Below, piece by piece: positions 6,499 to 18,107 of a stretch of 24,000 bases of DNA. The stretch comes from an uncultured Actinomycetes bacterium. Lineage in GTDB: Bacteria; Actinomycetota; UBA4738; HRBIN12. Position 1 is the first letter of the stretch; each line of letters begins with the position of its first letter. Made by a program: the position numbers and the translations under genes. The stretch covers positions 130,538 to 154,537 of the forward strand of contig CAWGUD010000027.1 of assembly GCA_963825685.1 (NCBI GenBank), read 5' to 3'. The notes beneath the pieces were generated by a model. The model was not told where the DNA came from. It worked only from the letters and a program-made list of their open reading frames with translations, and searched no databases.

Positions 6499-8886
6499 CT
6501 ACGTGGTCGCCGGGGTCCCGGCGGTCGGGCTCGGGTCGGGCCCGACCTCGGGCGCCGACAGGTGGAACGGCACGCTCGTGACCACGACACCCGGCTCGAA
6601 GAGCAGCACCCGTTTGAAGAACAGGGCGGTCTGGTTGTGCAACAGGTTCTCCCACCAGTGTCGTGGCACGAGCTCGGGCAGCACGACGGTGACCACGGTG
6701 TCGCCGCGTGATGTGTGCGCGCGGATCTCTTCGAGCAACGGCGGACCGAAGTCGCGGAAGGGAGCCTCGACCAGCACGAGCGGCACGTCGAGCTGCCGCT
6801 CGTGCCACTCGTCCACCACGCCCTCGACCTCGTCGGGATCGGTGACCATGTAGATCGCCTCGATCGCGGTGGGGTGCAGCGACTTGCCGTAGATCACGGC
6901 ACGCACCGTCGGATCGTGCACCGCGGAGACGGGCACGAGGACCACCGTGCGCTCCGGCTCGAGCGGTCGATCGCCGAGCCAGGTCGGCCGCGCTTCCGAC
7001 GGCACGAGCGGCACGTCGGTCACGACCACTCGCGGCTCGAACAGCAGCGCCGTCTTCAGCAGGAACGCCTCCCGATGTCGCACGAACTGCCAGACCGTGT
7101 TGCGCGGAAGCAGCTCGGGGATCACGACCGTGAGGAATCGGTCCCGCTCGTGGCGAGGCACCGAGCGCACGAAGCGACGGACGGATCGGACGAGGTGCCG
7201 GTCGGCGCCTCGGAGCGGCTCCAGCTCGCCCATGCGGGGGGCGATCACCGACCACTCCGCCGCCACGCCCTCGAACGCATCGGCAGGGCCGACGTACAGC
7301 GCGTTGAAGCTGGTGGGGCGAACGGCCCGCAGGTAGGCGACCGCATCACGGGTCGCGAGCCCCAGGTCGGGCACGAGCAGCAGCATCGTGCCGCTCGCGG
7401 CGTCGCGCCCGGTCAGGCGGCGAGCCTGCAGCGCGCGCGCCACGTGCTCGTAGTGGCGATGCACCGCCCAGAAGAACAGCACGATGAACGGCATCGCGAC
7501 GATCACGATCCAGGCGCCCTTGGCGAACTTCGTGACCGTGACGACGACGAGCACGACGCCGGTCGTGGCCGCGCCGATGCCGTTGATCACGGCGCTCCGC
7601 TGCCAGCTCCCCTCCTTCGTCCGCATCCAGCGCCGGACCATGCCCGCCTGCGACAGCGTGAAGGCCGTGAACACGCCGACGACGTAGAGCTGGATCAGCC
7701 GCGTGAGGTTGGCGTCGAACGCCCAGATCAGCATCGCCGCGAGACCGGCGAGGACGACGACGCCGTTCGAGAAGACGAGCCGGTCGCCCCGGTTGCGGAA
7801 CTGCGAGGGCATGAAGCGGTCGCGCGCGAGGATCGAGGCGAGCCGAGGGAAGTCCTGGAACGCCGTGTTGGCCGCGAGGATCAGGATGCCCGCGGTGAAC
7901 ACCTGCAGCAGCAGGAACATGAAGCCGCCGCCGAAGACCGTGTCGCCGATCTGGGCCAGCACCGGCAGCTCGTGGACGATGTCCTCGCTGATCCGCACGT
8001 GCAGGAGCACGGAGAGCGCGGTGATGCCGAGGAACATCGTGATCGACATCGCTCCCATCACCGCGAGGGTGGTCGCGGCGTTCCTCGCCTGCGGCCTGCG
8101 GAACGCCGGCACCCCGTCGGCGATCGCCTCGACGCCGGTCAACGCGGTCGCACCCGACGAGAACGCGCGCGCGATCAGGAACAGCGTCAGCGTGTGCTCG
8201 ACCTCGAGGGGAAGGTCAGCGGTCTCGGCGAGCGGGCAGCCGCCCATGCAGCGGACGAAGCCCGTCACGAGCGTGATCGCGATCATCAGCACGAACCCGT
8301 AGGTCGGGATCGCGAACAGCGACCCGGCCTCCTTCACGCCTCGGAGGTTGGCGAGGGTCACGAGGGCGACGAGCGCGATCGCGATCGGCACGCGCATCGG
8401 TACGAGGGTCTCCGGTGCGACGGAGGCGATCGCCGTGGTCCCCGCGGTGATGCTCACCGCCACGGTCAGCACGTAGTCGGTCAGGATCGCGGCGGCGGCG
8501 GTGAGGCCGGGGATCGTCCCCAGGTTCTCGCGGGCGACGATGTAGGAGCCGCCGCCGGTGGGATAGGCACGCACCGTCTGCCGGTACGACGTGACGACGA
8601 TGGCCAGCAGCAGGGCGATCGCCAGCGCGATCGGCATCCTGAGCGTGAGGGCCCCGGCCCCGGCCGCCACGAGCACGAGCATCATCTCCTCGGTGGCGTA
8701 CGCGTTCGAGGAGAGGGGGTCGGAGGAGAAGACCGGCAGGGCGAGGAACTTCGGCAGGAGCTGGTGCTCGGCCTTGTCGGAGGCGATGGCCCGTCCGACG
8801 AACAGTCGCTTCAGGGGGCCCCCACCGACCCTGCGAGGGAGTTGCAGCTCTGCAGGCACGGCGAGCATCCTCGCACGTCGCGGCAC
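6499..8886 (-). CDS. APC-superfamily permease, KimA-type K+/H+ symporter-like, with two tandem C-terminal cytoplasmic domains (paralogue 2)
   Basis: 795-aa ORF, colinear paralogue of 4126..6489 with the same motifs (LKRLFVGRAIAS..AEHQLLPKFLALPVFSSDPLSSNAYATEE, SYRQTVRAYPTGGGSYIVARENLG, ARAFSSGATALTGVEAIADGVPAFRRPQARNAA, RGDRLVFSNG). Its stop lies 9 nt before the start of paralogue 1. The start is uncertain: GTG 8886 or ATG 8868. Confidence 0.8.
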   Translation of the reverse strand: MPRRARMLAVPAELQLPRRVGGGPLKRLFVGRAIASDKAEHQLLPKFLALPVFSSDPLSSNAYATEEMMLVLVAAGAGALTLRMPIALAIALLLAIVVTSYRQTVRAYPTGGGSYIVARENLGTIPGLTAAAAILTDYVLTVAVSITAGTTAIASVAPETLVPMRVPIAIALVALVTLANLRGVKEAGSLFAIPTYGFVLMIAITLVTGFVRCMGGCPLAETADLPLEVEHTLTLFLIARAFSSGATALTGVEAIADGVPAFRRPQARNAATTLAVMGAMSITMFLGITALSVLLHVRISEDIVHELPVLAQIGDTVFGGGFMFLLLQVFTAGILILAANTAFQDFPRLASILARDRFMPSQFRNRGDRLVFSNGVVVLAGLAAMLIWAFDANLTRLIQLYVVGVFTAFTLSQAGMVRRWMRTKEGSWQRSAVINGIGAATTGVVLVVVTVTKFAKGAWIVIVAMPFIVLFFWAVHRHYEHVARALQARRLTGRDAASGTMLLLVPDLGLATRDAVAYLRAVRPTSFNALYVGPADAFEGVAAEWSVIAPRMGELEPLRGADRHLVRSVRRFVRSVPRHERDRFLTVVIPELLPRNTVWQFVRHREAFLLKTALLFEPRVVVTDVPLVPSEARPTWLGDRPLEPERTVVLVPVSAVHDPTVRAVIYGKSLHPTAIEAIYMVTDPDEVEGVVDEWHERQLDVPLVLVEAPFRDFGPPLLEEIRAHTSRGDTVVTVVLPELVPRHWWENLLHNQTALFFKRVLLFEPGVVVTSVPFHLSAPEVGPDPSPTAGTPATT

Positions 8887-8905: not shown

Positions 8906-9595
8906 CTAGCCGGCGACCTCGGCCACCCAGCGATAGCCGACCCCCGGCTCCGTGACGATCAGGGCCGGGGCCTGCGCATCGTCGCCGAGCTTCTTCCGCA
9001 GGGCACGCACGTAGGTGCGCAGGTAGGTCGTCTCGGTCCCGTAGCCCTGCCCCCACACCTTCCGCAGGAGCCACTGATGGGTGAGGAGCTTGCCCGGGTT
9101 CGTCACGAGCGCCTCGAGCAGGCCGTACTCCGTGGGTGTGAGCCGCACCTGCTCGCCGTCGAGGGTCACCAGCCGACGGGGAAGGTCGACCTCGATCCTG
9201 CCGAACCGCAGCACGGGTGCGGATGGCTCGTCAGACTGCTTGCGGCGCATAGCAGCCCGGGCCCGGGCGAGGAGCTCCTCCATGCCGAAGGGCTTCGTGA
9301 CGTAGTCATCGGCGCCCGCGTCGAGCGCGGCGACCTTGTCGGTCTGAGATTCCCGCACCGAGAGCACGATCACCGGCACGTCGCTGAACCCGCGAACACG
9401 GCGGATCACCTCGGTCCCGTCGATGTCGGGGAGCCCGAGGTCCAGCAGCACGAGATCGGGCGCCTGCTCGGCAGCGCCGACGACCCCTTCCTCGCCGGTG
9501 CCGACGGTCGCGACGTCGTACCCGTGGGCCTCGAGGCTCGTGCGAAGCGCCCGTCTGATCTGCGGCTCGTCGTCGACGACGAGGACCAGGGTCAT
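8906..9595 (-). CDS. OmpR/PhoB-family response regulator, KdpE paralogue
   Basis: 229 aa with a receiver domain (VVDDEPQI...DLGLPDIDG...KPF) and a winged helix (LTPTEYGLLEALVTNPGKLLTHQWLLRKVWG...YLRTYVRALRKKL). By eye it is about half identical to the KdpE at 14866..15552. Its ATG overlaps the stop of the upstream kinase (ATGA). Confidence 0.9.
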   Translation of the reverse strand: MTLVLVVDDEPQIRRALRTSLEAHGYDVATVGTGEEGVVGAAEQAPDLVLLDLGLPDIDGTEVIRRVRGFSDVPVIVLSVRESQTDKVAALDAGADDYVTKPFGMEELLARARAAMRRKQSDEPSAPVLRFGRIEVDLPRRLVTLDGEQVRLTPTEYGLLEALVTNPGKLLTHQWLLRKVWGQGYGTETTYLRTYVRALRKKLGDDAQAPALIVTEPGVGYRWVAEVAG

Positions 9596-11106
9596 GTGCG
9601 CGCCTCCTGATCGGCCGGGACCCCGGCGCGAGCGAGGTCGGCCTCGAGTCCCGGCGTGTACGCGGGGATCTCGAACACGAAGGTCGCGCCCTCACCGACC
9701 GCGTCCTCGACCCAGATGCGGCCGCCGTGCGCCGTGACGATCGCGTTCGCGATCGCGAGTCCCAGGCCGGTGCCGGGGGAATCCGGGATCGAGGCGCCTC
9801 GGTAGAAGGCCTCGAAGATGCGCTCGCGGTCACCGTCAGGAACGCCGGGCCCCTGATCGGTCACCCGCACGATGACGTGATCGTTCGACGGCGCGACCGA
9901 CAGCCTCACCTCACCTCCGGGCGGCGAGTGGCGTGCGGCGTTCTCGAGCAGGTTCGTCATCACCTGGTCGAGCTGCATCTCGTCGACGGCGACCGGGGGC
10001 ACGTCATCGTCGATGTCGAGCACGATCCGCACGTCGTGCAGGCGCGGCACGAGCCGGGCGACGACGACCTCCGCGATCTCGTCGAGACCGGCCTCGTTGC
10101 GGGCGGGGATCAGGGCGCCCGCCCGGATGCGCGCGAGGTCGAGGATGTTGCCGACCAGTCGGTTCAGCCGGTCGGTCTCCTCGAGGATCGTCGTGAGCAG
10201 CTCCCGTTCCTGCGTCGGATCGTGCTCCACGCTGGGATCGAGCAGGCTCGTGACCCCCGCCTTGATCGACGCGAGCGGCGTGCGGAAGTCGTGGGTCACC
10301 GAACTGAACATCGCCGCGCGCAGCTGGTTCGTCTCGGCATCGAGCTGCGCGAGCCGGGCGCGGGCGTCGAGCCGAGCGCGGTCGAGCGCGGCGGCGGCCT
10401 GCTTCGATGCCGCCTCGAGGAGGAGCTGCTCGTGCGGCCCGAGGGGCCGACGTCCGGCGGGGCGCTCGACCCGCAGCGTGCCGAACGAGACCGGCCCGAC
10501 GACGAGGGGCACCACGCTGTCCGGACCGCCGGGCGTGAGCTCGGAGCGCTCCGCGCGCGCGCGGAGCTGCGTGCCGTCGAGCTCGACGTGCACCTCGGCC
10601 GAGACCAGCCCGAACGGCTCCAGCAGCACGCGCACGAAATCGTCGAGCACCCGGTCGGGCACCTCGCCCGAGACGAACCTCGACGAGAGGTGCCCGAGCA
10701 GGCGTGCCTCGCGCTCACGACGGCTCGCCCGGGCCCGCTCCTCGGCGGCACCCCCGACCAGGATGCCGACGACGAGCGCCACGGTCAGGAACACCACCGC
10801 GGTGACCGCCTCCTCGGTGCCCTCGAGCTGCAGGGCAAGCCCCTGTGCCTCGGACAGGAACACGAGCCCCAGCGACGACAGGATCGCAGCGAGGAGGCCC
10901 GCCCAGAGGCCACCCGCGACCGTCGCGATCACGATCGCCAGCAGGAAGAGCGCGATCGCGGCCGCCGGCCCGTTGCGGGCGAGCGGGATCGAGGCCACGC
11001 CGGCGGCCGCGGGGGCGACCACCGCGATCGCCACCCCGCGGACGCGCAGGCCGGGGAATCGGCGCCGTTCCGGCTCGTTCACTCCCAGATCCATCGTGTT
11101 GGCCAT
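9592..11106 (-). CDS. Sensor histidine kinase, KdpD C-terminal-half type (TM/DUF4118-like + GAF-like + HisKA + HATPase_c), lacking the KdpD N-terminal and Usp domains
   Basis: 504 aa. The H-box FSSVTHDFRTPLASIKAGVTSL is near-identical to that of KdpD in this window (LSAVSHDLRTPLASIKAAASSL). The N, G1 and G2 boxes are present (LLENAARHSP, DQGPGVP, GTGLGLAI). The N-terminus has 3-4 TM helices, and no Walker-A KdpD domain is present. Confidence 0.85.
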   Translation of the reverse strand: MANTMDLGVNEPERRRFPGLRVRGVAIAVVAPAAAGVASIPLARNGPAAAIALFLLAIVIATVAGGLWAGLLAAILSSLGLVFLSEAQGLALQLEGTEEAVTAVVFLTVALVVGILVGGAAEERARASRREREARLLGHLSSRFVSGEVPDRVLDDFVRVLLEPFGLVSAEVHVELDGTQLRARAERSELTPGGPDSVVPLVVGPVSFGTLRVERPAGRRPLGPHEQLLLEAASKQAAAALDRARLDARARLAQLDAETNQLRAAMFSSVTHDFRTPLASIKAGVTSLLDPSVEHDPTQERELLTTILEETDRLNRLVGNILDLARIRAGALIPARNEAGLDEIAEVVVARLVPRLHDVRIVLDIDDDVPPVAVDEMQLDQVMTNLLENAARHSPPGGEVRLSVAPSNDHVIVRVTDQGPGVPDGDRERIFEAFYRGASIPDSPGTGLGLAIANAIVTAHGGRIWVEDAVGEGATFVFEIPAYTPGLEADLARAGVPADQEART

Positions 11107-11134
11107 CGTGCCATGCGTATCGGCACGGATCCGT

Positions 11135-11184
11135 CTTCACGTGATCTTCACGCCACGGCGCCGTTCCTTCACGCCACCCTCACA
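11135..11184. promoter_or_regulatory. Array of four phased 7-bp direct repeats (two pho-box-like 7+4+7 units); candidate response-regulator operator upstream of the kinase/regulator/permease operon
   Basis: Plus strand reads CTTCACG-tgat-CTTCACG (11135-11152) and CTTCACG-ccac-CCTCACA (11167-11184). Repeat starts are at 11135, 11146, 11167 and 11178, spaced 11/21/11. The array lies 29-78 nt upstream of the kinase ATG (11106). On the operon-sense strand the repeat reads CGTGAAG. Confidence 0.4.
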
Positions 11185-11306
11185 GACCGAGGACGATGCT
11201 CTGGGCAGGAGTAGAACGTCCTCCGAACCAAGCCCGGAGGCCGGACGGCGCCCTCCAGCCCGCCCGACCTCCGGGCCCCGTCCTTTCCGGACCCCTCCCC
11301 CGCCGG

Positions 11307-11322
11307 TGTGAACGACTTCACA
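11307..11322. promoter_or_regulatory. Perfect CRP/GlxR-type palindrome TGTGA-N6-TCACA
   Basis: The sequence is TGTGAacgactTCACA at 11307-11322, in the 314-bp divergent intergenic region. An extra TGTGA half-site lies at 11330-11334. A Crp-family regulator gene lies 540 bp away. Confidence 0.55.
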
Positions 11323-11420
11323 GCGTTCCTGTGACCCACGCCGCCCACCTTCCGACGGCCCACGCCTACGGTCGGACCGAGGGCTGCGAGGTGAGCAGCC
11401 ACCGAGCGGAGGGAGAGGTC

Positions 11421-11792
11421 ATGAGCGCCACCGAGGTGCAGCACCCGAGCGGATCGGCCCACACGGGAACGCCCTGGTCGTGGGTGGGAGTCGCCGCCGT
11501 GATGGTGTTGATCTCACGGTGTTGTCGATCGGGCTGGCTCGCAACGTCGGGAGAGACGACGCGTCCGGGCGGTGGTGAGACGGCACCGGTCACCGAGATC
11601 CAGATCGAGGTGCCGGCGAAGGACCTCGTCCTGCACGGCCGCGGACTCGTGGACATGCCGGACCAGGTCGCAGTCGCCAAAGGTGCCGCAGCCGCGACGA
11701 AGTCGACCGCGAACGAGACGTCGGGCGCAGGAGCGGGGATCGCAGCGAAGGCGACGTGCCCTGAGCAGCTCGCCCTGAAGCTCTTCTGCTGA
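11421..11792 (+). CDS. Hypothetical small protein (123 aa) with one N-terminal hydrophobic segment
   Basis: Internal ATG of ORF 11196..11792, preceded by GGAGGGAGAGG. Third-codon-position GC is high throughout. The hydrophobic stretch is PWSWVGVAAVMVLI. A strong hairpin follows 18 nt after the stop. I recognise no family. Confidence 0.45.
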   Translation: MSATEVQHPSGSAHTGTPWSWVGVAAVMVLISRCCRSGWLATSGETTRPGGGETAPVTEIQIEVPAKDLVLHGRGLVDMPDQVAVAKGAAAATKSTANETSGAGAGIAAKATCPEQLALKLFC

Positions 11793-11809
11793 CTCCCGCG
11801 AGTCGCGCA

Positions 11810-11841
11810 CGACGGATCCGGCCGACAGGCCGGATCCGTCG
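11810..11841. terminator. Bidirectional intrinsic-terminator-like hairpin between convergent genes
   Basis: A perfect 14-bp stem (c)GACGGATCCGGCC-gaca-GGCCGGATCCGTC(g) sits 18 nt after the stop at 11792 and 20 nt after the minus-strand stop at 11862. It has no U-tract, which is common for actinobacterial terminators. Confidence 0.6.
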
Positions 11842-11861
11842 CGTGTCGAGGGGCCCGGACC

Positions 11862-12554
11862 TCACCCGTCCGAGAGTCGCTCGAGGGCCTCGGGGTCCAG
11901 CAGCAGGTATCGCCGACCGTCGCGCCGGACGATGCCGCGCCGACCGAACTCGGACAGCGTCTTCGACACGCTCTCGCGCGTCACCCCGCACAGGCTCGCG
12001 AGGTCTGCCTGCGAGATCGGTGGCACCGCCGGCACACCGTCGGGTCCATCGTCCCTCGCGAGCTGCAGCAGCCGCTTCGCGAGGCGGCCCTTGAGGTCGA
12101 GCCACACGAGGTCGTCCGCGCTCGTCTCCTTCGCGATCACCTGTCTCGCGAGCGTCCGCAACAGACCGATCGCGAGCGTCGGCACCTCGCTCGCCAGCGA
12201 GATGAACGCCTCCCGCTCGAGGACCCAGATGCGTGCGTCCTCGAGGCACAGGACCGAGGCGGTTCGCTCGGTTTCGGCGAAGACCCCAAGCTCGCCGAAG
12301 AGCCGCACGGATTCCAGCCGGCCCTGCAGCTGCGAGCCCGAGGACGGCGACGACGTGGCGATCTCCAGTCGCCCTTCGAGGAGCATGAACACCTCCGACG
12401 ACGGGTCTCCCTGCATCGTGACGTACGTGCCGGCCCGATAGGCGCGGATCCGCCCCGTCGCCACGACCCGGGCGAGCGTGTCGTCCGGGATGCCGGCGAA
12501 GAGCTCATGCCGGCGCATCGCCCGCATCGCGCGGTCCGTGTCTCGGGTGCTCAT
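11862..12554 (-). CDS. Crp/Fnr-family cyclic-nucleotide-binding transcriptional regulator
   Basis: Lies within ORF 11862..12620. The start was set at ATG 12554, preceded by GAGGAGGTGG. The cNMP pocket is FGELGVFAETERTASV (compare CAP GELGLFEEGQERSAWV). The HTH is ISQADLASLCGVTRESVSKTLSEF, and its RE..K recognition residues resemble M. tuberculosis Crp SRETVNK. Confidence 0.85.
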   Translation of the reverse strand: MSTRDTDRAMRAMRRHELFAGIPDDTLARVVATGRIRAYRAGTYVTMQGDPSSEVFMLLEGRLEIATSSPSSGSQLQGRLESVRLFGELGVFAETERTASVLCLEDARIWVLEREAFISLASEVPTLAIGLLRTLARQVIAKETSADDLVWLDLKGRLAKRLLQLARDDGPDGVPAVPPISQADLASLCGVTRESVSKTLSEFGRRGIVRRDGRRYLLLDPEALERLSDG

Positions 12555-12658
12555 GCCACCTCCTCGGATGACCCATCGTCGCTCGCGACGGGCCGCGCGT
12601 CGACCCCGCGACACCGGCATGCTGCCGTCGCGCGCGGCGTGGTCTAGGATGCCCCGCG

Positions 12659-13321
12659 ATGCGAGTGATCATCATGGGATGCGGCCGCGTCGGCTCCGAG
12701 CTGTCGAACGAGCTCGTCGACGACGGCCACGACGTCACCGTGATCGACAAGAATCCCGAGGCCTTCTTCCGCTACCCGCCGGGCGACGGTGCGACGACCG
12801 TCGTCGGGCTAGGGTTCGACCGCGACGTGCTGGCGGAGGCGGGCATCGAGGAGGCTGACGCCTTCGTCGCGGTCTCCAGTGGGGACAACTCGAACATCGT
12901 CTCGGCTCGCGTCGCGCTCGAGAACTTCCATGTGCCCAAGGTCGTGGCGCGTATCTACGACCCCCGGCGTGCCGACATCTATGAGCGGCTCAACATCCCG
13001 ACCGTCGCCACCACGAGGTGGGGCGTGAAGCAGATCCAGCTGATGCTGTTCCACGACCGCCAGGAGATCCGCGAGACGCTGGGCGGTGGCGAGCTGCTGC
13101 GCATGCGCATGCCGGTGGGACCCCACATGGTCGGCAAGCCCGCGACCTCCTTCGACGTGCCGGGCAAGATCCTGATCGCCGGGGTATCGCGCGGAGGCGG
13201 CGGCTTCTTGCCCACCCCGGAGAGCACCTTGCAGGCGGGGGACTACCTCGTGGTGATGCTCACGAAGGACGGCATGGACACGCTCGACGAGGTCTTCGAG
13301 CCGGCCGGGGAGCACCACTGA
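12659..13321 (+). CDS. trkA: TrkA-family K+ uptake regulatory protein (RCK: TrkA_N + TrkA_C), CeoB-like
   Basis: 220 aa with a Rossmann motif (MRVIIMGCGRVGSELSNELVDDGHDVTVID) and a C-terminal TrkA_C-like region (LLRMRMP..HMVGKP..FDVPGKILIAGVSRGG...LQAGDYLVV). Confidence 0.9.
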   Translation: MRVIIMGCGRVGSELSNELVDDGHDVTVIDKNPEAFFRYPPGDGATTVVGLGFDRDVLAEAGIEEADAFVAVSSGDNSNIVSARVALENFHVPKVVARIYDPRRADIYERLNIPTVATTRWGVKQIQLMLFHDRQEIRETLGGGELLRMRMPVGPHMVGKPATSFDVPGKILIAGVSRGGGGFLPTPESTLQAGDYLVVMLTKDGMDTLDEVFEPAGEHH

Positions 13322-14041: not shown

Positions 14042-14869
14042 TCAGCCGTCGGCGGTGGTCGCGGCGGCGATCGCCGCTCGCAGCGCTCGGTCTCGTTCGA
14101 GCAGCAAGGCGAGCTGGTTCCCGAACGCCTCCAGGATGCGTCGCTCCGAGGCGCTGAGTGGTTCGCGGACTCCGCGCATCACCAACAGCCCCAGGTTGCG
14201 GCGCCCCACGTTGAGGGGGAGCCGCTCCACGCCCTCCCCACCGCTGGGCGGCACGGCGCCGGGTTCCGTTCCCACCGTCGCCTGCTCCACGAGCCCGCGA
14301 TCGGAACCCTCCTGCACGTACAGGGCGCCGTCCAGGAACCCGAACGACGCCACCACGACCCGCAGCACGCCCTCGTACGGCCGAGGTCCTGGTTGGGGCT
14401 CGACCAGCAGGCGGCTGAGGTCCTGCTGCCTGCGGAGCTCCTCGGCGCGGGCCTCCGCAGCCCGCGCCCGTGCGTCGGCGCGGGCGACGAGCACGGAGAT
14501 CAGCACCGACAGCCCCAGGAAGACGAACAGCACGATCACGTCGTGCGACTTGCCGATCACGAACGTCTCGTACGGGGGTAGGAAGAAGAAGTTGAAGACG
14601 GCGAACCCGAGCACACTCGCCACGATGCCCGGGCCGAGCCCACCCAGGCCGACGCACGCGACGACCAGCACGAGGAAGCCGAACCCCGTCGCGACCGGGT
14701 CGACCCGCTCGCGGATCGCCGGCGCAGCGAGCACGATCGCCGCCGTTCCGGCGACCGCGAGCACGTACGCCGCCGCGACCCGGCCGGAGACCTGGATGCG
14801 CGGACGACGTTGGGGCGGTGTGCCGACCTCGTGCCGGTCGGGCCGATCAGGTGCCTGAGATGCCGTCAT
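14042..14869 (-). CDS. Kinase-less KdpD-like sensor core (DUF4118 transmembrane domain + GAF-like domain)
   Basis: Internal ATG 14869 of ORF 14042..15088, overlapping the kdpE stop (ATGA). It has four TM helices with the DUF4118 hallmark FAVFNFFFLPPYETFVI, then a coiled segment and a GAF-like region (VLRVVVASFGFLDGALYV...LLVMRG...ERRILEAFGNQLALLLERDRA). It ends where the HisKA helix would begin. Confidence 0.75.
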   Translation of the reverse strand: MTASQAPDRPDRHEVGTPPQRRPRIQVSGRVAAAYVLAVAGTAAIVLAAPAIRERVDPVATGFGFLVLVVACVGLGGLGPGIVASVLGFAVFNFFFLPPYETFVIGKSHDVIVLFVFLGLSVLISVLVARADARARAAEARAEELRRQQDLSRLLVEPQPGPRPYEGVLRVVVASFGFLDGALYVQEGSDRGLVEQATVGTEPGAVPPSGGEGVERLPLNVGRRNLGLLVMRGVREPLSASERRILEAFGNQLALLLERDRALRAAIAAATTADG

Positions 14870-15552
14870 GGGGTTCCCTCCGGCTCGAACCGGTACCCCA
14901 TGCCGGGCTCGGTGATGAAGAACCGAGGTCGCGCCGGGTCGGGCTCGAGCTTGCGTCGGATCTGCGCCATGTACACACGCAGGTAGTTCGTCTCGTCGTG
15001 GTACTGCGGCCCCCACACCTCCTGCAGCAGCTGTCGTTGCGTCACGAGCTTGCCCGGGTTGCGGACCAGGATCTCCACGACGTGCCACTCGGTCGGCGTG
15101 AGCCGCACCTCACCCTCGGCGGTGCGCACCCGCGCCGCACCGAGGTCGACCGTGAAGGCGTCGGTCGTGACTTCTGGTTCCTCGTCCGTCGGACGCAGCC
15201 GCCGTTCGGCGGCTCGCAGCCGCGCGAGGAGCTCGTCCATGCCGAAGGGCTTCGTCACGTAGTCGTCGGCGCCGGCGTCGAGGGCACGGACCTTGTCCGG
15301 CTCCTGGTCACGGGCCGAGAGCACGAGGATCGGCATGCGGCTCCATGCCCTGATGCCCTCGATCACGTCGACCCCGTCGATCCCGGGCAAGCCGAGATCG
15401 ACGATCGCCACATCGGGACGTTCACGGGCGGCGATCGCGAGGGCCTCCTCGCCATCGGGGGCGGTCACCACGTCGTACCCACGGGCGCGCAGGTTCGTGC
15501 GGAGCCCGCGCACGATCTGGGGCTCGTCGTCGACCACCAGCACCCGGGTCAT
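14866..15552 (-). CDS. kdpE: Response regulator KdpE
   Basis: 228 aa with motifs LSARDQEPDKVRALDAGADDYVTKPFGMDELLAR and LTPTEWHVVEILVRNPGKLVTQRQLLQEVWGPQY..ETNYLRVYMAQIRRKLE. Its ATG overlaps the kdpD stop. Confidence 0.92.
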   Translation of the reverse strand: MTRVLVVDDEPQIVRGLRTNLRARGYDVVTAPDGEEALAIAARERPDVAIVDLGLPGIDGVDVIEGIRAWSRMPILVLSARDQEPDKVRALDAGADDYVTKPFGMDELLARLRAAERRLRPTDEEPEVTTDAFTVDLGAARVRTAEGEVRLTPTEWHVVEILVRNPGKLVTQRQLLQEVWGPQYHDETNYLRVYMAQIRRKLEPDPARPRFFITEPGMGYRFEPEGTP

Positions 15553-18107
15553 CCACCCACCTCCGCAGGAGGATGCGCCGATGGCTCGGGGAGCGCCTCA
15601 CCGGAGGGCTCGGCGAGCGGGAACGCCACCACCATCGTCAGTCCGCCGCCGGGCGTCTCGTCGGGTGTGAGGGTGCCCCCCATCGCCTGGACGAACCCGC
15701 GAGCCACCGCGAGCCCGAGGCCGACGCCGTCGACACCTGCGCGATCGCCGAGTCGCTGGAACGGTTCGAAGACCCGTTCACGGTCCTCCGCCGGGATACC
15801 GGGGCCACGATCGACCACGCGTAGCTCGACCCGGCCGCTGGCGGCGGATCCGAAGACGCCCACGGGAGCGTCCGGCGGGCTGAACGCCCGCGCGTTCGCG
15901 ACCAGGTTCGCCACCGCACGCTCGAGGAGCGCCGCATCGACGTCGATGCGCGGCAGATCCTCGGGAACGTCGACCTCGACGTCGTGGCCTCGTCCCGGGA
16001 GGCTGGCCAGGGCACGCAGCACCACCTCGTCGAGCCCGACCCTGCTCGGCGTGAGGCGCAACATGCCGCTCTGGATGCGGCTCATGTCGAGCAGGTTGCC
16101 GACGAGCTCGGTGAGCCGGTCTGTCTCTTCCTCGATCGTCGCGAGGAACTCGTCTCGCTCCTCGTCGTCCCACACCACGTCTCGCTGGCGGAGGGAGCTC
16201 GCGGCCGCCTTGATCGAGGCCAGCGGCGTGCGCAGATCGTGCGAGACGGCCGACAGGATCGCCGCTCGCAGGTCACTGACCTCGGAGACCCGCTCGGCCT
16301 CCGCCACGTCGCGTTCCAGCGCCCTCGTCCGCACGGCCGCCGTCAGCTGAGCCGCGAAGGCGGCCAGCACGCGACGCCGATCCGCAGGGAGGCGGCGGCC
16401 GCGGAGGACCAGCACTCCACCGTCCTCGAGGTCGATCGTTTCATCGCCGTCGTCGGGCGAGGCGATCGGCTCACCGGTCGCGGCCTCGACGCGCCACCCC
16501 CGGTCGGTGGTGGGTGTGAGGACCGCGGCGCCCTCGAGCCCGAACGTCGCGACCACCTGCCGCACCAACGTCGGCAGCGGATCCTCCTCCGCCGCGAGCG
16601 ACCCGGCCATCCGCGCGAGCGCCTCGGCCTCACCCCGGCCGCGCGCGGCCTCGGCCCGCGACCGCTCGGCCCGATCGACCAGGATGCTCACGGCGACGGC
16701 GGCGGCGACGAACGCGACGAGGGCCAACAGGTTCTCGGCCTCGGCGATCGTCCACGTGTGGATCGGCGGCGTGAAGAACCAGTTGAGCAGGAGCGAGGCA
16801 GCCACCGCGCTCGCGACCGCGGGCCAGATGCCGCCGACGGCCCCGATCGCGAGCACGAGGATGAAGTAGAGCAGCACATCGGCCGTGAGGCCGAGGGAGC
16901 CACGCGCGGCGGTGAGCGCGAGCGTGAGCAGCGGCAGCCCGACGAGGGCGAGCGCGAACCCCGCGACCTGGCGGGCGGGGGGGAGCCCGACGAGCGCGCG
17001 ACGCCGCTTCGGCGCCCCCCCACCCGCAGGGGCTGCGCTGGAGATCACATGCACGTCGATCGGGCCGGATCGCCGGATCACCCGGTTGATCACCGACCCC
17101 CGGATCAGCTCGGCGACCCGCGACCGATCGCTCTCGCCCAGCACCACCTGGGTGACGTTCTCCGCCCGGGCGACATCGAGGAGCGCGTCCGGCACGCTCG
17201 CGCCGACGACCTCGTGGAACGCGCCACCGAGCGCGCGGACGAGGGTTCGCGTCTCCTCGAGCGCGGCAGCATCGGCGACGCCGTCCTCAGGCACCACATG
17301 CACGGCGACGAGGTCCCCACCGCGCCGCGTGGCCATGCGCGACCCCCGACGGATCAAGTTCTCGTCCTCATCGGGACGACCGGTCACCCCGACCAGGACG
17401 CGTTCGCGCGTCTCCCACGGCCCTTCGATGTCGTGGACCCGCATGTACTCGTGCAGCGACTCGTCGACGCGGTCGGCCATCCACAGGAGCGCCAGCTCCC
17501 GGAGGGCGCCGAGGTTCCCCTCTCGGAAGTAGTTGCCGAGCGCGGCGTCGACCTTCCCGGGCGGGTAGATGTTCCCGTGCGCCATGCGACGGCGGAGCGC
17601 GTGTGGGGTCATGTCGACGAGCTCCTGTTGGTCGGCGGCGCGCACGATCTCGTCGGGGATCGTCTCGCGCTGAGCGACCCCGGTGATGCGCTCGACGACG
17701 TCGTTCACCGACTCGAGGTGCTGGATGTTCACCGTCGAGATCACGTCGATGCCCGCTACCAGCAGTTCCTCGACGTCCTGCCAGCGTTTCGCGTTGCGGG
17801 AGCCCGGCACGTTCGTGTGCGCGAGCTCGTCGACCAACGCGACCTCGGGCGCGCGAGCGAGGAGCCCGTCGACATCCATCTCCTCGAACGTCGAGCCTCG
17901 GTACTCGATCAGGCGGCGGGGCAGGACCTCCAGGTCACCGACCTGCTCGGCGGTGCGCGGGCGACCATGGGTCTCGATGAAGCCGACCACGACGTCGGTG
18001 CCGCGGTCGCGGCGCCGTCGGCCCTCGTTCAACATCGCGTAGGTCTTGCCGACGCCCGCGGCGAAGCCGACGTAGATACGCAGCTCGCCGCGGCGACGAT
18101 CGCTCAT
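15549..18107 (-). CDS. kdpD: Sensor histidine kinase KdpD (full length: KdpD-N, Usp, 4 TM/DUF4118, GAF, HisKA, HATPase_c)
   Basis: 852 aa. Motifs: GELRIYVGFAAGVGKTYAMLNEG (Walker A), FIETHGR, LLLNWFFTPPIHTWTI and H-box SAVSHDLRTPLASIK. Its ATG overlaps the kdpC stop. Confidence 0.95.
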   Translation of the reverse strand: MSDRRRGELRIYVGFAAGVGKTYAMLNEGRRRRDRGTDVVVGFIETHGRPRTAEQVGDLEVLPRRLIEYRGSTFEEMDVDGLLARAPEVALVDELAHTNVPGSRNAKRWQDVEELLVAGIDVISTVNIQHLESVNDVVERITGVAQRETIPDEIVRAADQQELVDMTPHALRRRMAHGNIYPPGKVDAALGNYFREGNLGALRELALLWMADRVDESLHEYMRVHDIEGPWETRERVLVGVTGRPDEDENLIRRGSRMATRRGGDLVAVHVVPEDGVADAAALEETRTLVRALGGAFHEVVGASVPDALLDVARAENVTQVVLGESDRSRVAELIRGSVINRVIRRSGPIDVHVISSAAPAGGGAPKRRRALVGLPPARQVAGFALALVGLPLLTLALTAARGSLGLTADVLLYFILVLAIGAVGGIWPAVASAVAASLLLNWFFTPPIHTWTIAEAENLLALVAFVAAAVAVSILVDRAERSRAEAARGRGEAEALARMAGSLAAEEDPLPTLVRQVVATFGLEGAAVLTPTTDRGWRVEAATGEPIASPDDGDETIDLEDGGVLVLRGRRLPADRRRVLAAFAAQLTAAVRTRALERDVAEAERVSEVSDLRAAILSAVSHDLRTPLASIKAAASSLRQRDVVWDDEERDEFLATIEEETDRLTELVGNLLDMSRIQSGMLRLTPSRVGLDEVVLRALASLPGRGHDVEVDVPEDLPRIDVDAALLERAVANLVANARAFSPPDAPVGVFGSAASGRVELRVVDRGPGIPAEDRERVFEPFQRLGDRAGVDGVGLGLAVARGFVQAMGGTLTPDETPGGGLTMVVAFPLAEPSGEALPEPSAHPPAEVGG

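What the first reader, a model, noticed from the sequence alone, without database searches (positions are those of the whole stretch)
11307..11322. Perfect CRP box next to a Crp-family regulator inside the K+ transport cluster
Seen in sequence: TGTGAacgactTCACA is a 10/10 match to the TGTGA-N6-TCACA consensus. My rough estimate, given about 70% GC, is well under 0.01 such sites expected by chance in 24 kb. An extra TGTGA half-site lies 8 nt downstream. The box sits in the divergent region between the kinase/regulator/permease operon (ATG 11106) and a small unknown ORF (ATG 11421). The regulator at 11862-12554 keeps the CAP/Mtb-Crp cAMP-contact pattern (GEL...ERTAS) and the RE..K DNA-reading residues that recognise TGTGA. 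A TANNNT hexamer (TACGGT, 11367-11372) would put the box near -62 to -65 of a plus-strand promoter, a class-I-like position. Inference: cyclic-nucleotide input is layered on K+ uptake, or on the unknown small protein.
Basis: partly seen in the sequence, partly recalled or inferred. Interest (0 to 1): 0.6.

Follow-up and report, generated by a model that had tools for sequence, protein, structure and literature searches.

The report
Crp box of a small-protein promoter
The perfect CRP-type DNA box is real, but it is the fixed upstream element of the promoter of a small, uncharacterised membrane-protein gene that travels with the neighbouring Crp-family regulator in uncultured soil Actinomycetota; it shows no conserved link to the potassium-transport genes around it.

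Summary
TGTGAACGACTTCACA lies at 11307-11322, and no shuffle of the window gives a perfect match. About 0.004 such sites are expected per 24 kb.

What is shown: the box belongs to a conserved promoter cassette. All 27 copies I examined of this orphan single-pass membrane-protein gene family carry the box 113-115 bp before the ATG. They come from 12 related MAGs and 5 metagenome contigs.

Next to the regulator the gene is always convergent with this Crp paralogue. This holds in 10 of 10 related genomes and on two metagenome contigs. Only the four closest relatives share the K+ genes; in six others the flanks differ. Unlinked paralogue copies carry the same cassette, including one in this genome (contig C24).

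What is inferred: the local Crp (RESVSK helix, intact cNMP pocket) binds the boxes and activates this promoter. Box 2 would sit near -41.5 and box 1 near -64.5 (confidence about 0.6).

Main rival: another TGTGA-reading regulator. Such boxes persist in relatives that lack this paralogue.

The K+ reading is not supported. This is a new member of a known kind.

The parts
11307..11322 (+). Box 1: perfect TGTGA-N6-TCACA. It is the upstream boundary of the conserved promoter cassette; inferred centre about -64.5.
   Evidence: The GTGA.C....TCAC core is invariant in 22 aligned cassettes. The box lies at -113 to -115 from the ATG in 27/27 units.
11330..11345 (+). Box 2: degenerate second box starting 23 bp after box 1. 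In this clade only the left half TGTGA is kept. Inferred centre about -41.5, where a -35 would be.
   Evidence: GTG and the CACCGAC-type right flank are invariant in the 22 cassettes. In more distant units it reads as GTGR-N6-TCAC.
11367..11372 (+). Probable -10 hexamer TACGGT (TANNNT type).
   Evidence: The T, A and final T are invariant in 22 cassettes. No sigma-70 -35/-10 pair is found by the consensus scan. The TSS itself is not mapped.
11382..11400 (+). 5'-UTR stem-loop GGCTGC-(7 nt)-GCAGCC.
   Evidence: Conserved in 22 cassettes; 89.6% of cells paired, against 11-51% when the partner is slid. There is little covariation.
11408..11418 (+). Shine-Dalgarno GGAGGGAGAGG.
11421..11792 (+). Target gene: small single-pass membrane protein (123 codons here), member of an orphan family ending in a Cys pair. 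In this assembly the TM helix is disrupted by a -1/+7 pair of indels.
   Evidence: The family profile is found only in genomes that carry the local-type Crp. No Pfam match. Only the TM helix is confidently modelled.
11810..11841 (.). Perfect 14-bp-stem hairpin between the convergent small gene and crp; probable bidirectional terminator.
   Evidence: conserved in 5 relatives. It has no T-run, so it is not called by the terminator scan.
11862..12554 (-). Crp-family regulator (230 aa), 'local type': cNMP_binding + HTH_Crp_2, FGEL...RTAS pocket, recognition helix TRESVSK.
   Evidence: Orthologues of 64-94% identity in 10 same-genus MAGs are always convergent with a boxed small gene.

Best explanation
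The box is the distal operator of a two-box, activator-dependent promoter that drives a small, orphan, single-pass membrane-protein gene (ATG 11421).

Shown:
- Box 1, box 2 (23 bp later), a TANNNT -10, a UTR hairpin, an SD and the gene form one cassette with fixed spacing (box to ATG 113-115 bp).
- The cassette occurs next to, and convergent with, this Crp paralogue. It also occurs as unlinked duplicate copies, one of them on contig C24 of this genome.

Inferred:
- The cNMP-bound dimer of the adjacent Crp paralogue (11862-12554) binds box 1 strongly and box 2 weakly or cooperatively.
- From about -41.5 and -64.5 it recruits RNA polymerase to a promoter that has no -35, so cyclic-nucleotide levels switch on this small-protein family.
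- The regulon is tiny: two loci in this genome.
- The position inside the K+ cluster is a lineage-specific juxtaposition, not a regulatory link.
For: 1. The perfect box is non-random.
2. In all 10 same-genus genomes with an orthologue of this regulator (64-94% identity), a perfect box (one mismatch in G004) lies about 540-640 bp beyond the regulator's stop codon. It sits 113-115 bp before the ATG of a convergent small membrane-protein gene.
3. The flanks differ in 6 of those genomes (DUF4234-type or thioredoxin-like genes on one side, CN-hydrolase on the other), so the unit is box + small gene + crp.
4. Three genomes have two tandem small genes, each with its own box.
5. Eight unlinked paralogue copies and 5 metagenome contigs all have the box at -113/-114.
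6. The 22-cassette alignment shows the invariant box core, box 2, the -10 and the UTR, with no conservation upstream of box 1.
7. The small-gene family is detected only in genomes with the local-type Crp: 11 of 11, plus one 76%-complete genome.
8. The regulator keeps GEL/RTAS and an invariant R-E-x-x-x-K helix. In CAP, R180/E181/R185 of the equivalent helix read TGTGA (PMC10187061).
9. Its nearest relatives, the 'array-type' clade (39-47% identity), carry 2-4 boxes of the same motif at the same 23-24 bp spacing in front of their own operon.
10. No box lies near the two other Crp paralogues of this genome.
11. A matrix built from the cassette boxes scores 31-32 bits at C24, C27 and C36, and at most 17 bits elsewhere, those hits being genic.
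12. The genome carries about 50 class III cyclase domains, so cNMP signalling is available.
Against: - There is no binding, TSS or expression data.
- Perfect TGTGA-N6-TCACA boxes (AT-rich spacer type) occur in nearly all 61 relatives, including genomes that lack both this regulator and the small-gene family. One example is upstream of a geranylgeranyl reductase in G031. A second TGTGA-reading regulator therefore exists and could also read this box.
- A paralogue with an RESVTR helix (contig C7) is present in 32/36 genomes of the genus.
- Co-occurrence of regulator and small gene may reflect one shared origin in one sub-clade rather than independent events.
- The position matrix is overfitted to orthologous sites.
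- In this assembly the adjacent target gene carries compensating indels that destroy its TM helix, and box 2 has lost its right half in this clade.
Confidence: 0.6

Rival explanations
1. The box is read by a different, more widely conserved Crp-like regulator encoded elsewhere. The candidates are the contig-C7 paralogue (RESVTR helix, degenerate cNMP pocket, next to an MBL hydrolase) and the slowly evolving contig-C6 paralogue. On this view the adjacent Crp gene is only a neighbour, or shares the site.
For: Perfect TGTGA-N6-TCACA boxes occur in 59/61 relatives, against 0-1 for a control pattern. These include genomes without the local-type regulator. The box upstream of geranylgeranyl reductase (own C20:36079) is conserved in G031, which lacks both the regulator and the small gene. 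One-mismatch sites are enriched in intergenic DNA (12 of 21 against 4.5 expected), including one before the atp operon. The C7-type paralogue is in 32/36 genus genomes and carries R-E-x-x-x-R. The C6-type is 100% identical between three species-level genomes, as expected of a global regulator.
Against: The small-gene cassettes are not found in any genome lacking the local-type regulator apart from one incomplete one. Cassette boxes have GC-rich, oriented spacers (TGTGAGC...TTCACA), unlike the AT-rich TGTGAAA..TTTCACA type. The C6-type helix is RQSVNQ and lacks the Glu that reads the fourth base pair of TGTGA in CAP. The sister clade of the local regulator carries the same motif in front of its own gene.
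Confidence: 0.2
2. The box controls, or also controls, the divergent kinase/response-regulator/KimA-like permease operon (ATG 11106). This would put cyclic-nucleotide input on K+ uptake.
For: In this genome and its 4 closest relatives the box lies in the divergent intergenic region, 201 bp from the kinase ATG. Crp sites in divergent regions can serve both promoters; one M. tuberculosis example sits at -62.5 and -130.5 (PMC4117774).
Against: Six orthologous loci, 8 unlinked copies and 5 metagenome contigs keep the box without any K+ gene nearby. Between the box and the kinase gene lies a separate block (11107-11290), almost invariant among the five closest genomes. It has its own CTTCACG direct repeats 29-78 nt from the ATG and a long hairpin. 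The 16 bp joining it to the box (11291-11306) are variable. Cassette conservation ends at the box.
Confidence: 0.07
3. The regulator represses rather than activates: the boxes occlude the promoter or an upstream element, and cNMP relieves or imposes repression.
For: GlxR and M. tuberculosis Crp both activate and repress (PMC10187061 and PMC4117774). The TSS is unmapped. Tandem boxes could let the protein oligomerise over the promoter.
Against: With the conserved TANNNT taken as -12 to -7, the boxes centre at -41.5 and -64.5, upstream of the -10. No -35-like hexamer is conserved. That is the geometry of activator-dependent promoters.
Confidence: 0.1

Closest known systems
E. coli CAP/CRP class II and tandem (class III) promoters
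   Same: The palindrome TGTGA-N6-TCACA is the same. The regulator has a cNMP domain plus an HTH whose F-helix carries R-E-x-x-x-(R/K). The proximal site is inferred at -41.5 in place of a -35, with a second upstream site (PMC10187061).
   Different: The regulator scores only about 44 bits against CAP. The two sites are 23 bp apart, which is not an integral number of helical turns. The regulon appears to be two loci rather than hundreds. No activating regions were examined.
M. tuberculosis Crp (Rv3676) and C. glutamicum GlxR, the global actinobacterial cAMP receptors
   Same: These are the best structural-sequence matches (3d0s, 4cyd; about 100 bits, E 1e-27). The GEL...R(T/S) pocket, the RE..K helix and the DNA consensus are the same.
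   Different: The match is far weaker than GlxR against Rv3676, which share 178 identical residues. Another paralogue in the genome scores higher against Rv3676 (151 bits). The regulator is not next to the MBL hydrolase; the C7 paralogue is. It occurs in only about a third of the genomes of the genus searched. Its predicted regulon is local.
Dedicated Crp-like regulators with a target next door, such as Rhodospirillum CgrA (perfect CAP box in its own operon promoter) and Sinorhizobium Clr, as reviewed in PMC10187061
   Same: A Crp paralogue is genetically linked to a promoter carrying a near-perfect CAP-type box, with a narrow physiological role.
   Different: Here the linked target is a convergent orphan membrane-protein gene, not the regulator's own operon. 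No box lies in the regulator's own promoter region 12555-12658. The effector nucleotide is unknown.
'Array-type' Crp clade of the same order
   Same: It is the nearest relative of the local regulator (39-47% identity). It uses the same motif and the same 23-24 bp box spacing. The two types were never found in the same genome: at the E-value cut-off of 1e-30, no genome of the genus gave more than one hit to the local Crp.
   Different: It has 2-4 boxes of the form TGTGAC-N4-GTCACA, placed upstream of a Lys-rich mini-ORF plus the regulator itself, behind a cNMP-domain protein and a CxxC mini-protein. Its helix is RENVTR. No member of the small membrane-protein family was detected in any genome that carries the array-type regulator, apart from one marginal hit in G012 (E 8.9e-4).

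Membership tests
CRP/FNR superfamily, cNMP-sensing Crp branch (the regulator at 11862-12554) | N-terminal cNMP_binding domain plus C-terminal Crp-type HTH | tested here: met
   PF00027 at 1.2e-16, PF13545 at 4.1e-20 and PF00325 at 8.4e-06, all above the curated cut-offs.
CRP/FNR superfamily, cNMP-sensing Crp branch (the regulator at 11862-12554) | cAMP-pocket signature (G-E-L, then R-S/T) and a C-helix T/S pair | tested here: met
   FGEL...ERTAS aligns to FGEL...PRTSS of Rv3676. KETS lies in the C-helix. The signature is conserved in all 10 orthologues. This is sequence level only; ligand identity is untested.
CRP/FNR superfamily, cNMP-sensing Crp branch (the regulator at 11862-12554) | F-helix R-E-x-x-x-R/K that reads TGTGA | tested here: met
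   TRES(V/I)SK is invariant in 11 orthologues. The roles of the residues are taken from PMC10187061.
CRP/FNR superfamily, cNMP-sensing Crp branch (the regulator at 11862-12554) | cNMP-dependent binding to the box | not testable with these tools
   Needs EMSA, ITC or ChIP.
Global actinobacterial Crp/GlxR orthologue group (Rv3676 type) | High sequence identity to Rv3676/GlxR, and the best match in the genome | tested here: not met
   100 bits for the local protein against 151 bits for the contig-C6 paralogue.
Global actinobacterial Crp/GlxR orthologue group (Rv3676 type) | Near-universal presence in related genomes and a large regulon | tested here: not met
   The local type is in 10/36 genomes of the genus and the array type in 11 more. 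A cassette-derived matrix finds only the small-gene cassettes.
CRP-type operator (the 16-mer) | Match to TGTGA-N6-TCACA beyond chance | tested here: met
   10/10 match; 0 of 100 shuffles; 0.004 expected per window.
CRP-type operator (the 16-mer) | Conserved at the orthologous position while the flanks vary (phylogenetic footprint) | tested here: met
   27/27 units; invariant core; variable sequence on the upstream side.
Class II / tandem CRP-dependent promoter | Site centred near -41.5 replacing the -35, with an optional upstream site | tested here: inconclusive
   The geometry follows if the conserved TANNNT spans -12 to -7.

The most novel reading that the evidence does not exclude
In this clade the small membrane proteins may be cAMP-controlled accessory subunits or modulators of the K+ systems they have come to lie between (KimA-like symporters, TrkA pair, Kdp). 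If so, insertion of the crp + small-gene module into the K+ locus would really wire cyclic-nucleotide signalling into K+ homeostasis through a small protein rather than through transcription of the transporters.
Probability: 0.07. Interest if true: 0.6.

Novelty: new member of a known kind. Interest (0 to 1): 0.35.

Why it matters
- It corrects an attractive but unsupported link between cAMP and K+ transport.
- It defines a clean, testable regulatory unit in an uncultured soil Actinomycetota lineage. The unit is a dedicated Crp paralogue, a two-box promoter with fixed geometry, and an orphan family of small membrane proteins that duplicates together with its promoter.
- It gives a minimal system for asking how Crp paralogues with the same core motif partition targets in one cell. 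The candidate discriminators are spacer composition and tandem 23-bp spacing.
- It flags the small-protein family as a probable cyclic-nucleotide output of unknown function.

Tried and rejected
- **Rfam.** Gathering threshold on the whole window and E-value mode on 11050-11900 both gave no RNA family, in particular no c-di-AMP or other riboswitch.
- **Promoter and terminator scan.** The sigma-70/terminator consensus scan of 10900-12800 found nothing. The -10 was therefore inferred from conservation.
- **Longer ORF.** The ORF from ATG 11196, which would put the box inside coding sequence, was rejected. GC3 is 0.72 upstream against 0.81 downstream, the SD and ATG at 11421 are conserved, and the conserved cassette extends into non-coding sequence.
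- **Boxes near the other Crp paralogues.** I looked within 3 kb of the C6 and C7 paralogues and found none.
- **A look-alike box.** TGTGAGGTCGATCACA in G002, G023, G033 and G014 looked like a cassette lacking its regulator. It is an unrelated site between an aminotransferase gene and an 81-aa/DnaE2-like gene.
- **atp-operon box.** I tested whether this box is the one conserved in G031 and G036. It is not; those boxes precede a geranylgeranyl reductase.
- **Function of the small protein.** Pfam gave nothing. The 49 database homologues are all 'hypothetical'. The AlphaFold model has mean pLDDT 56.6 and only the TM helix is confident, so I ran no fold search.
- **UTR hairpin.** Pairing is kept but covariation is not above the shuffles.

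Full report
**1. The observation**

The sequence at 11307-11322 is TGTGAACGACTTCACA, a 10/10 match to TGTGA-N6-TCACA.
- It is the only perfect match in the window, and none of 100 dinucleotide-preserving shuffles produced one.
- With the genome's composition (3.61 Mb, 70.2% GC) the iid expectation is 0.004 per 24 kb and 0.6 per genome. Four perfect sites exist, all intergenic.
- Relaxing to two mismatches gives fewer sites than chance, so only the perfect site carries signal.

**2. Gene map**

| Coordinates | Strand | Gene |
|---|---|---|
| 6499-8886 | - | APC/KimA-like permease |
| 8906-9595 | - | OmpR-type response regulator |
| 9592-11106 | - | DUF4118-HisKA-HATPase kinase |
| 11421-11792 | + | small ORF without a Pfam match |
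| 11862-12554 | - | Crp-family regulator (cNMP_binding + HTH_Crp_2) |
| 12659-13321 and following | + | TrkA pair |
| 14042-15088 | - | DUF4118 protein |
| 14866-15552 | - | kdpE |
| 15549-18107 | - | kdpD, with kdpCBA beyond |

- The window is contig C27:130538-154537 of a 44-contig assembly with 7.95% contamination.
- Contig C36 is a 97%-identical second copy of C27:122319-148875 and carries the same box. It is most likely a second strain in the bin.
- Named relatives are all MAGs labelled Actinomycetota or uncultured Actinomycetes.

**3. The regulator**

- Its best solved relatives are M. tuberculosis Crp and C. glutamicum GlxR, at only about 100 bits.
- It keeps FGEL...ERTAS and the recognition helix TRESVSK. 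In CAP the equivalent R180, E181 and R185 read TGTGA (PMC10187061).
- The genome has two other Crp paralogues.
  - One on contig C6 is closer to Rv3676 (151 bits) but has the helix RQSVNQ.
  - One on contig C7 has the helix RESVTR and a degenerate nucleotide pocket, and sits next to an MBL hydrolase.
- Neither paralogue has a box within 3 kb.
- About 50 class III cyclase domains are present in the genome.

**4. Comparative evidence: what the box belongs to**

*Orthologous loci.* Orthologues of the regulator (64-94% identity) occur in 10 of 36 genomes of the genus searched.
- Every one has a TGTGA-N6-TCACA box beyond the regulator's stop codon. Nine are perfect and one has a single mismatch.
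- Only the four closest genomes (G022, G034, G018, G004) also have the kinase/regulator/permease operon and trkA.
- In G007, G020 and G009 the neighbour on the box side is a co-directional DUF4234-type gene. In G006, G013 and G011 it is a thioredoxin-like gene.
- On the other side of crp, G013 and G011 have a CN-hydrolase-type gene followed by an amidohydrolase. Pfam calls on the two metagenome contigs with the same layout confirm this.
- In all ten, the box lies 113-115 bp before the ATG of a small plus-strand gene convergent with crp.
- G006, G013 and G011 have two such genes in tandem, each with its own box.

*The protein family.* It has 120-155 residues. It starts MDASRTH... or MSAT..., has one TM helix, a low-complexity tail with REGGxYAGxIPxGTPDSF, and ends in a Cys pair.
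- It has no Pfam match.
- All 49 database homologues are hypothetical proteins from Actinomycetota MAGs or metagenomes.
- Only the TM helix is modelled with confidence.

*Distribution.* A profile of the family finds it only in genomes that carry the local-type regulator: 11 of 11, plus G017, which is 76% complete.

*Unlinked copies.* The same search revealed unlinked paralogue copies, including G000:C24:26203.
- That copy lies exactly 114 bp after the genome's other GC-spacer perfect box, at C24:26089.
- All eight unlinked copies have the box at -114.
- So do five further metagenome contigs.
- In total 27 of 27 units have it.

**5. Anatomy of the cassette (alignment A2, 22 units)**

- Nothing is conserved upstream of box 1.
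- Box 1 has the invariant core GTGA.C....TCAC.
- Box 2 starts 23 bp later. It has an invariant GTG and a CACCGAC-type right flank, and reads GTGR-N6-TCAC in most units.
- In the window's clade the right half of box 2 has decayed and the left half is TGTGA.
- Twenty-one bp further on lies CCTA(C/G)(G/C)(G/T)TC, a TANNNT -10. No -35 is conserved.
- Then follow a 6-7-bp stem-loop (pairing kept, little covariation), the SD and the ATG.
- If the hexamer spans -12 to -7, the TSS is about 11379, box 2 centres at -41.5 and box 1 at -64.5. This step is inference; no TSS data could be obtained.

**6. The K+ side**

- Among the five closest genomes, the block 11107-11290 upstream of the kinase gene is almost invariant.
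- It contains three CTTCACG direct repeats (11135, 11146, 11167) and a long hairpin (z = -4.1). The block is unique to this locus.
- The 16 bp between that block and the box are variable.
- Two independent regulatory modules therefore abut here.
- Together with section 4, this gives no support for control of K+ genes by the box, although dual use cannot be excluded.

**7. Who reads the box?**

*For the adjacent regulator:*
- conserved linkage through changes of context, and co-occurrence (sections 4 and 5);
- the RE..K helix;
- absence of boxes near the other paralogues;
- the nearest relatives of this regulator. This 'array-type' clade has 39-47% identity and the helix RENVTR. It is never found in the same genome as the local type and is the closest clade in the tree. 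It carries 2-4 TGTGAC-N4-GTCACA boxes at 23-24 bp spacing upstream of its own operon in 17 of 19 loci;
- a matrix built from the cassette boxes scores 31-32 bits at C24, C27 and C36 and no more than 17 bits elsewhere.

*Against exclusivity:*
- perfect boxes with AT-rich spacers occur in 59 of 61 relatives;
- the one before a geranylgeranyl reductase (own C20:36079) is conserved in G031, which lacks both the regulator and the small gene;
- one-mismatch sites are enriched in intergenic DNA, including one before the atp operon. GlxR is known to control the atp operon.

Another TGTGA reader therefore exists, probably the C7-type paralogue, which is found in 32/36 genomes.

My confidence: local regulator about 0.6; other regulator about 0.2; control of the K+ operon about 0.07. 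Independently of which regulator binds, I put about 0.1 on repression rather than activation.

**8. State of the target in this genome**

- Relative to four relatives, the window's small gene has a 1-nt deletion near 11513 and a 7-nt insertion about 40 nt later. This replaces the second half of the TM helix.
- The C36 copy has an uncompensated +1.
I could not check reads.
- The unlinked C24 paralogue is intact.

**9. Comparison with known systems, and verdict**

- The parts are standard Crp biology: a Crp-family cNMP receptor, a CAP-type palindrome and an activator geometry.
- The regulator is not the Rv3676/GlxR orthologue. It matches less well than another paralogue, has a patchy distribution and a tiny predicted regulon.
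- It resembles dedicated Crp paralogues with a linked target, such as CgrA and Clr.
- New here are the target family, the fixed two-box cassette that duplicates with the gene, and the convergent linkage.
- I rate it a new member of a known kind, of modest interest.

Noticed in passing
L024-L042 (for example L025:1030-1115, L027:1004-1090, L036:1034-1121, each oriented with crp on +): Across several families of the order, a related Crp clade (helix RENVTR) sits in a conserved locus. The order is: cNMP-domain protein, a 69-aa CxxC mini-protein, an array of 2-4 TGTGAC-N4-GTCACA boxes spaced 23-24 bp, a roughly 50-aa Lys-rich mini-ORF, then the Crp-like gene. It looks like an autoregulated multi-operator system and I found no description of it.
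   Followed up: partly
window 11107-11290: This block upstream of the truncated-KdpD-like kinase is nearly invariant among 5 genomes and unique in the genome. It contains three CTTCACG direct repeats (11135, 11146, 11167) and a long GC-rich hairpin at about 11228-11283 (folding z-score -4.1). No Rfam family matches.
   Followed up: partly
window 11505-11560; L077 (G000:C36:19000-21000): The small gene carries a -1/+7 pair of indels that scrambles about 20 codons including the TM helix. The 97%-identical C36 copy has an uncompensated +1. This is either assembly indel error or decay of the gene in this lineage.
   Followed up: partly
G000 contig C36 against C27:122319-148875: A 26.6-kb stretch is present twice at 97% identity, and the bin has 7.95% contamination. 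The assembly probably mixes two strains. C25/C34 look like another such pair.
   Followed up: partly
G000:C20:36079; G000:C25:38387 and C34:7462; G000:C20:49733: CRP-type boxes with AT-rich spacers lie before a geranylgeranyl reductase gene, before the atpI-like/atpB operon, and between a ccdA-like gene and a membrane-protein gene. The reductase box is conserved in G031, which lacks both the local Crp and the small gene; similar AT-rich-spacer boxes occur in many other relatives that lack them, at sites I did not examine. This is probably the regulon of a different, global TGTGA reader.
   Followed up: partly
G000:C33:52276; L062-L065: A conserved TGTGA-N6-TCAC box lies between an ornithine-aminotransferase-like gene and a divergent 81-aa gene followed by a DnaE2-like polymerase. 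It is perfect in G002, G023, G033 and G014.
   Followed up: no
L004 (G000:C7:60392-61150, minus strand): This Crp-family paralogue has an intact RESVTR helix but has lost the GEL/R(T/S) nucleotide pocket. It sits next to an MBL-fold hydrolase, is present in 32/36 genomes of the genus, and evolves fast. It may be a ligand-independent Crp.
   Followed up: partly
whole genome G000: About 50 matches to the class III nucleotidyl-cyclase domain occur in a 3.6-Mb genome, several of them in tandem clusters (for example C5:17917-28662).
   Followed up: no
window 11382-11400 and the same position in 21 other cassettes (alignment A2): A conserved 5'-UTR stem-loop (GCTGCG...CGCAGC) lies just after the inferred TSS. 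It could be an mRNA-stabilising hairpin or a second operator.
   Followed up: partly
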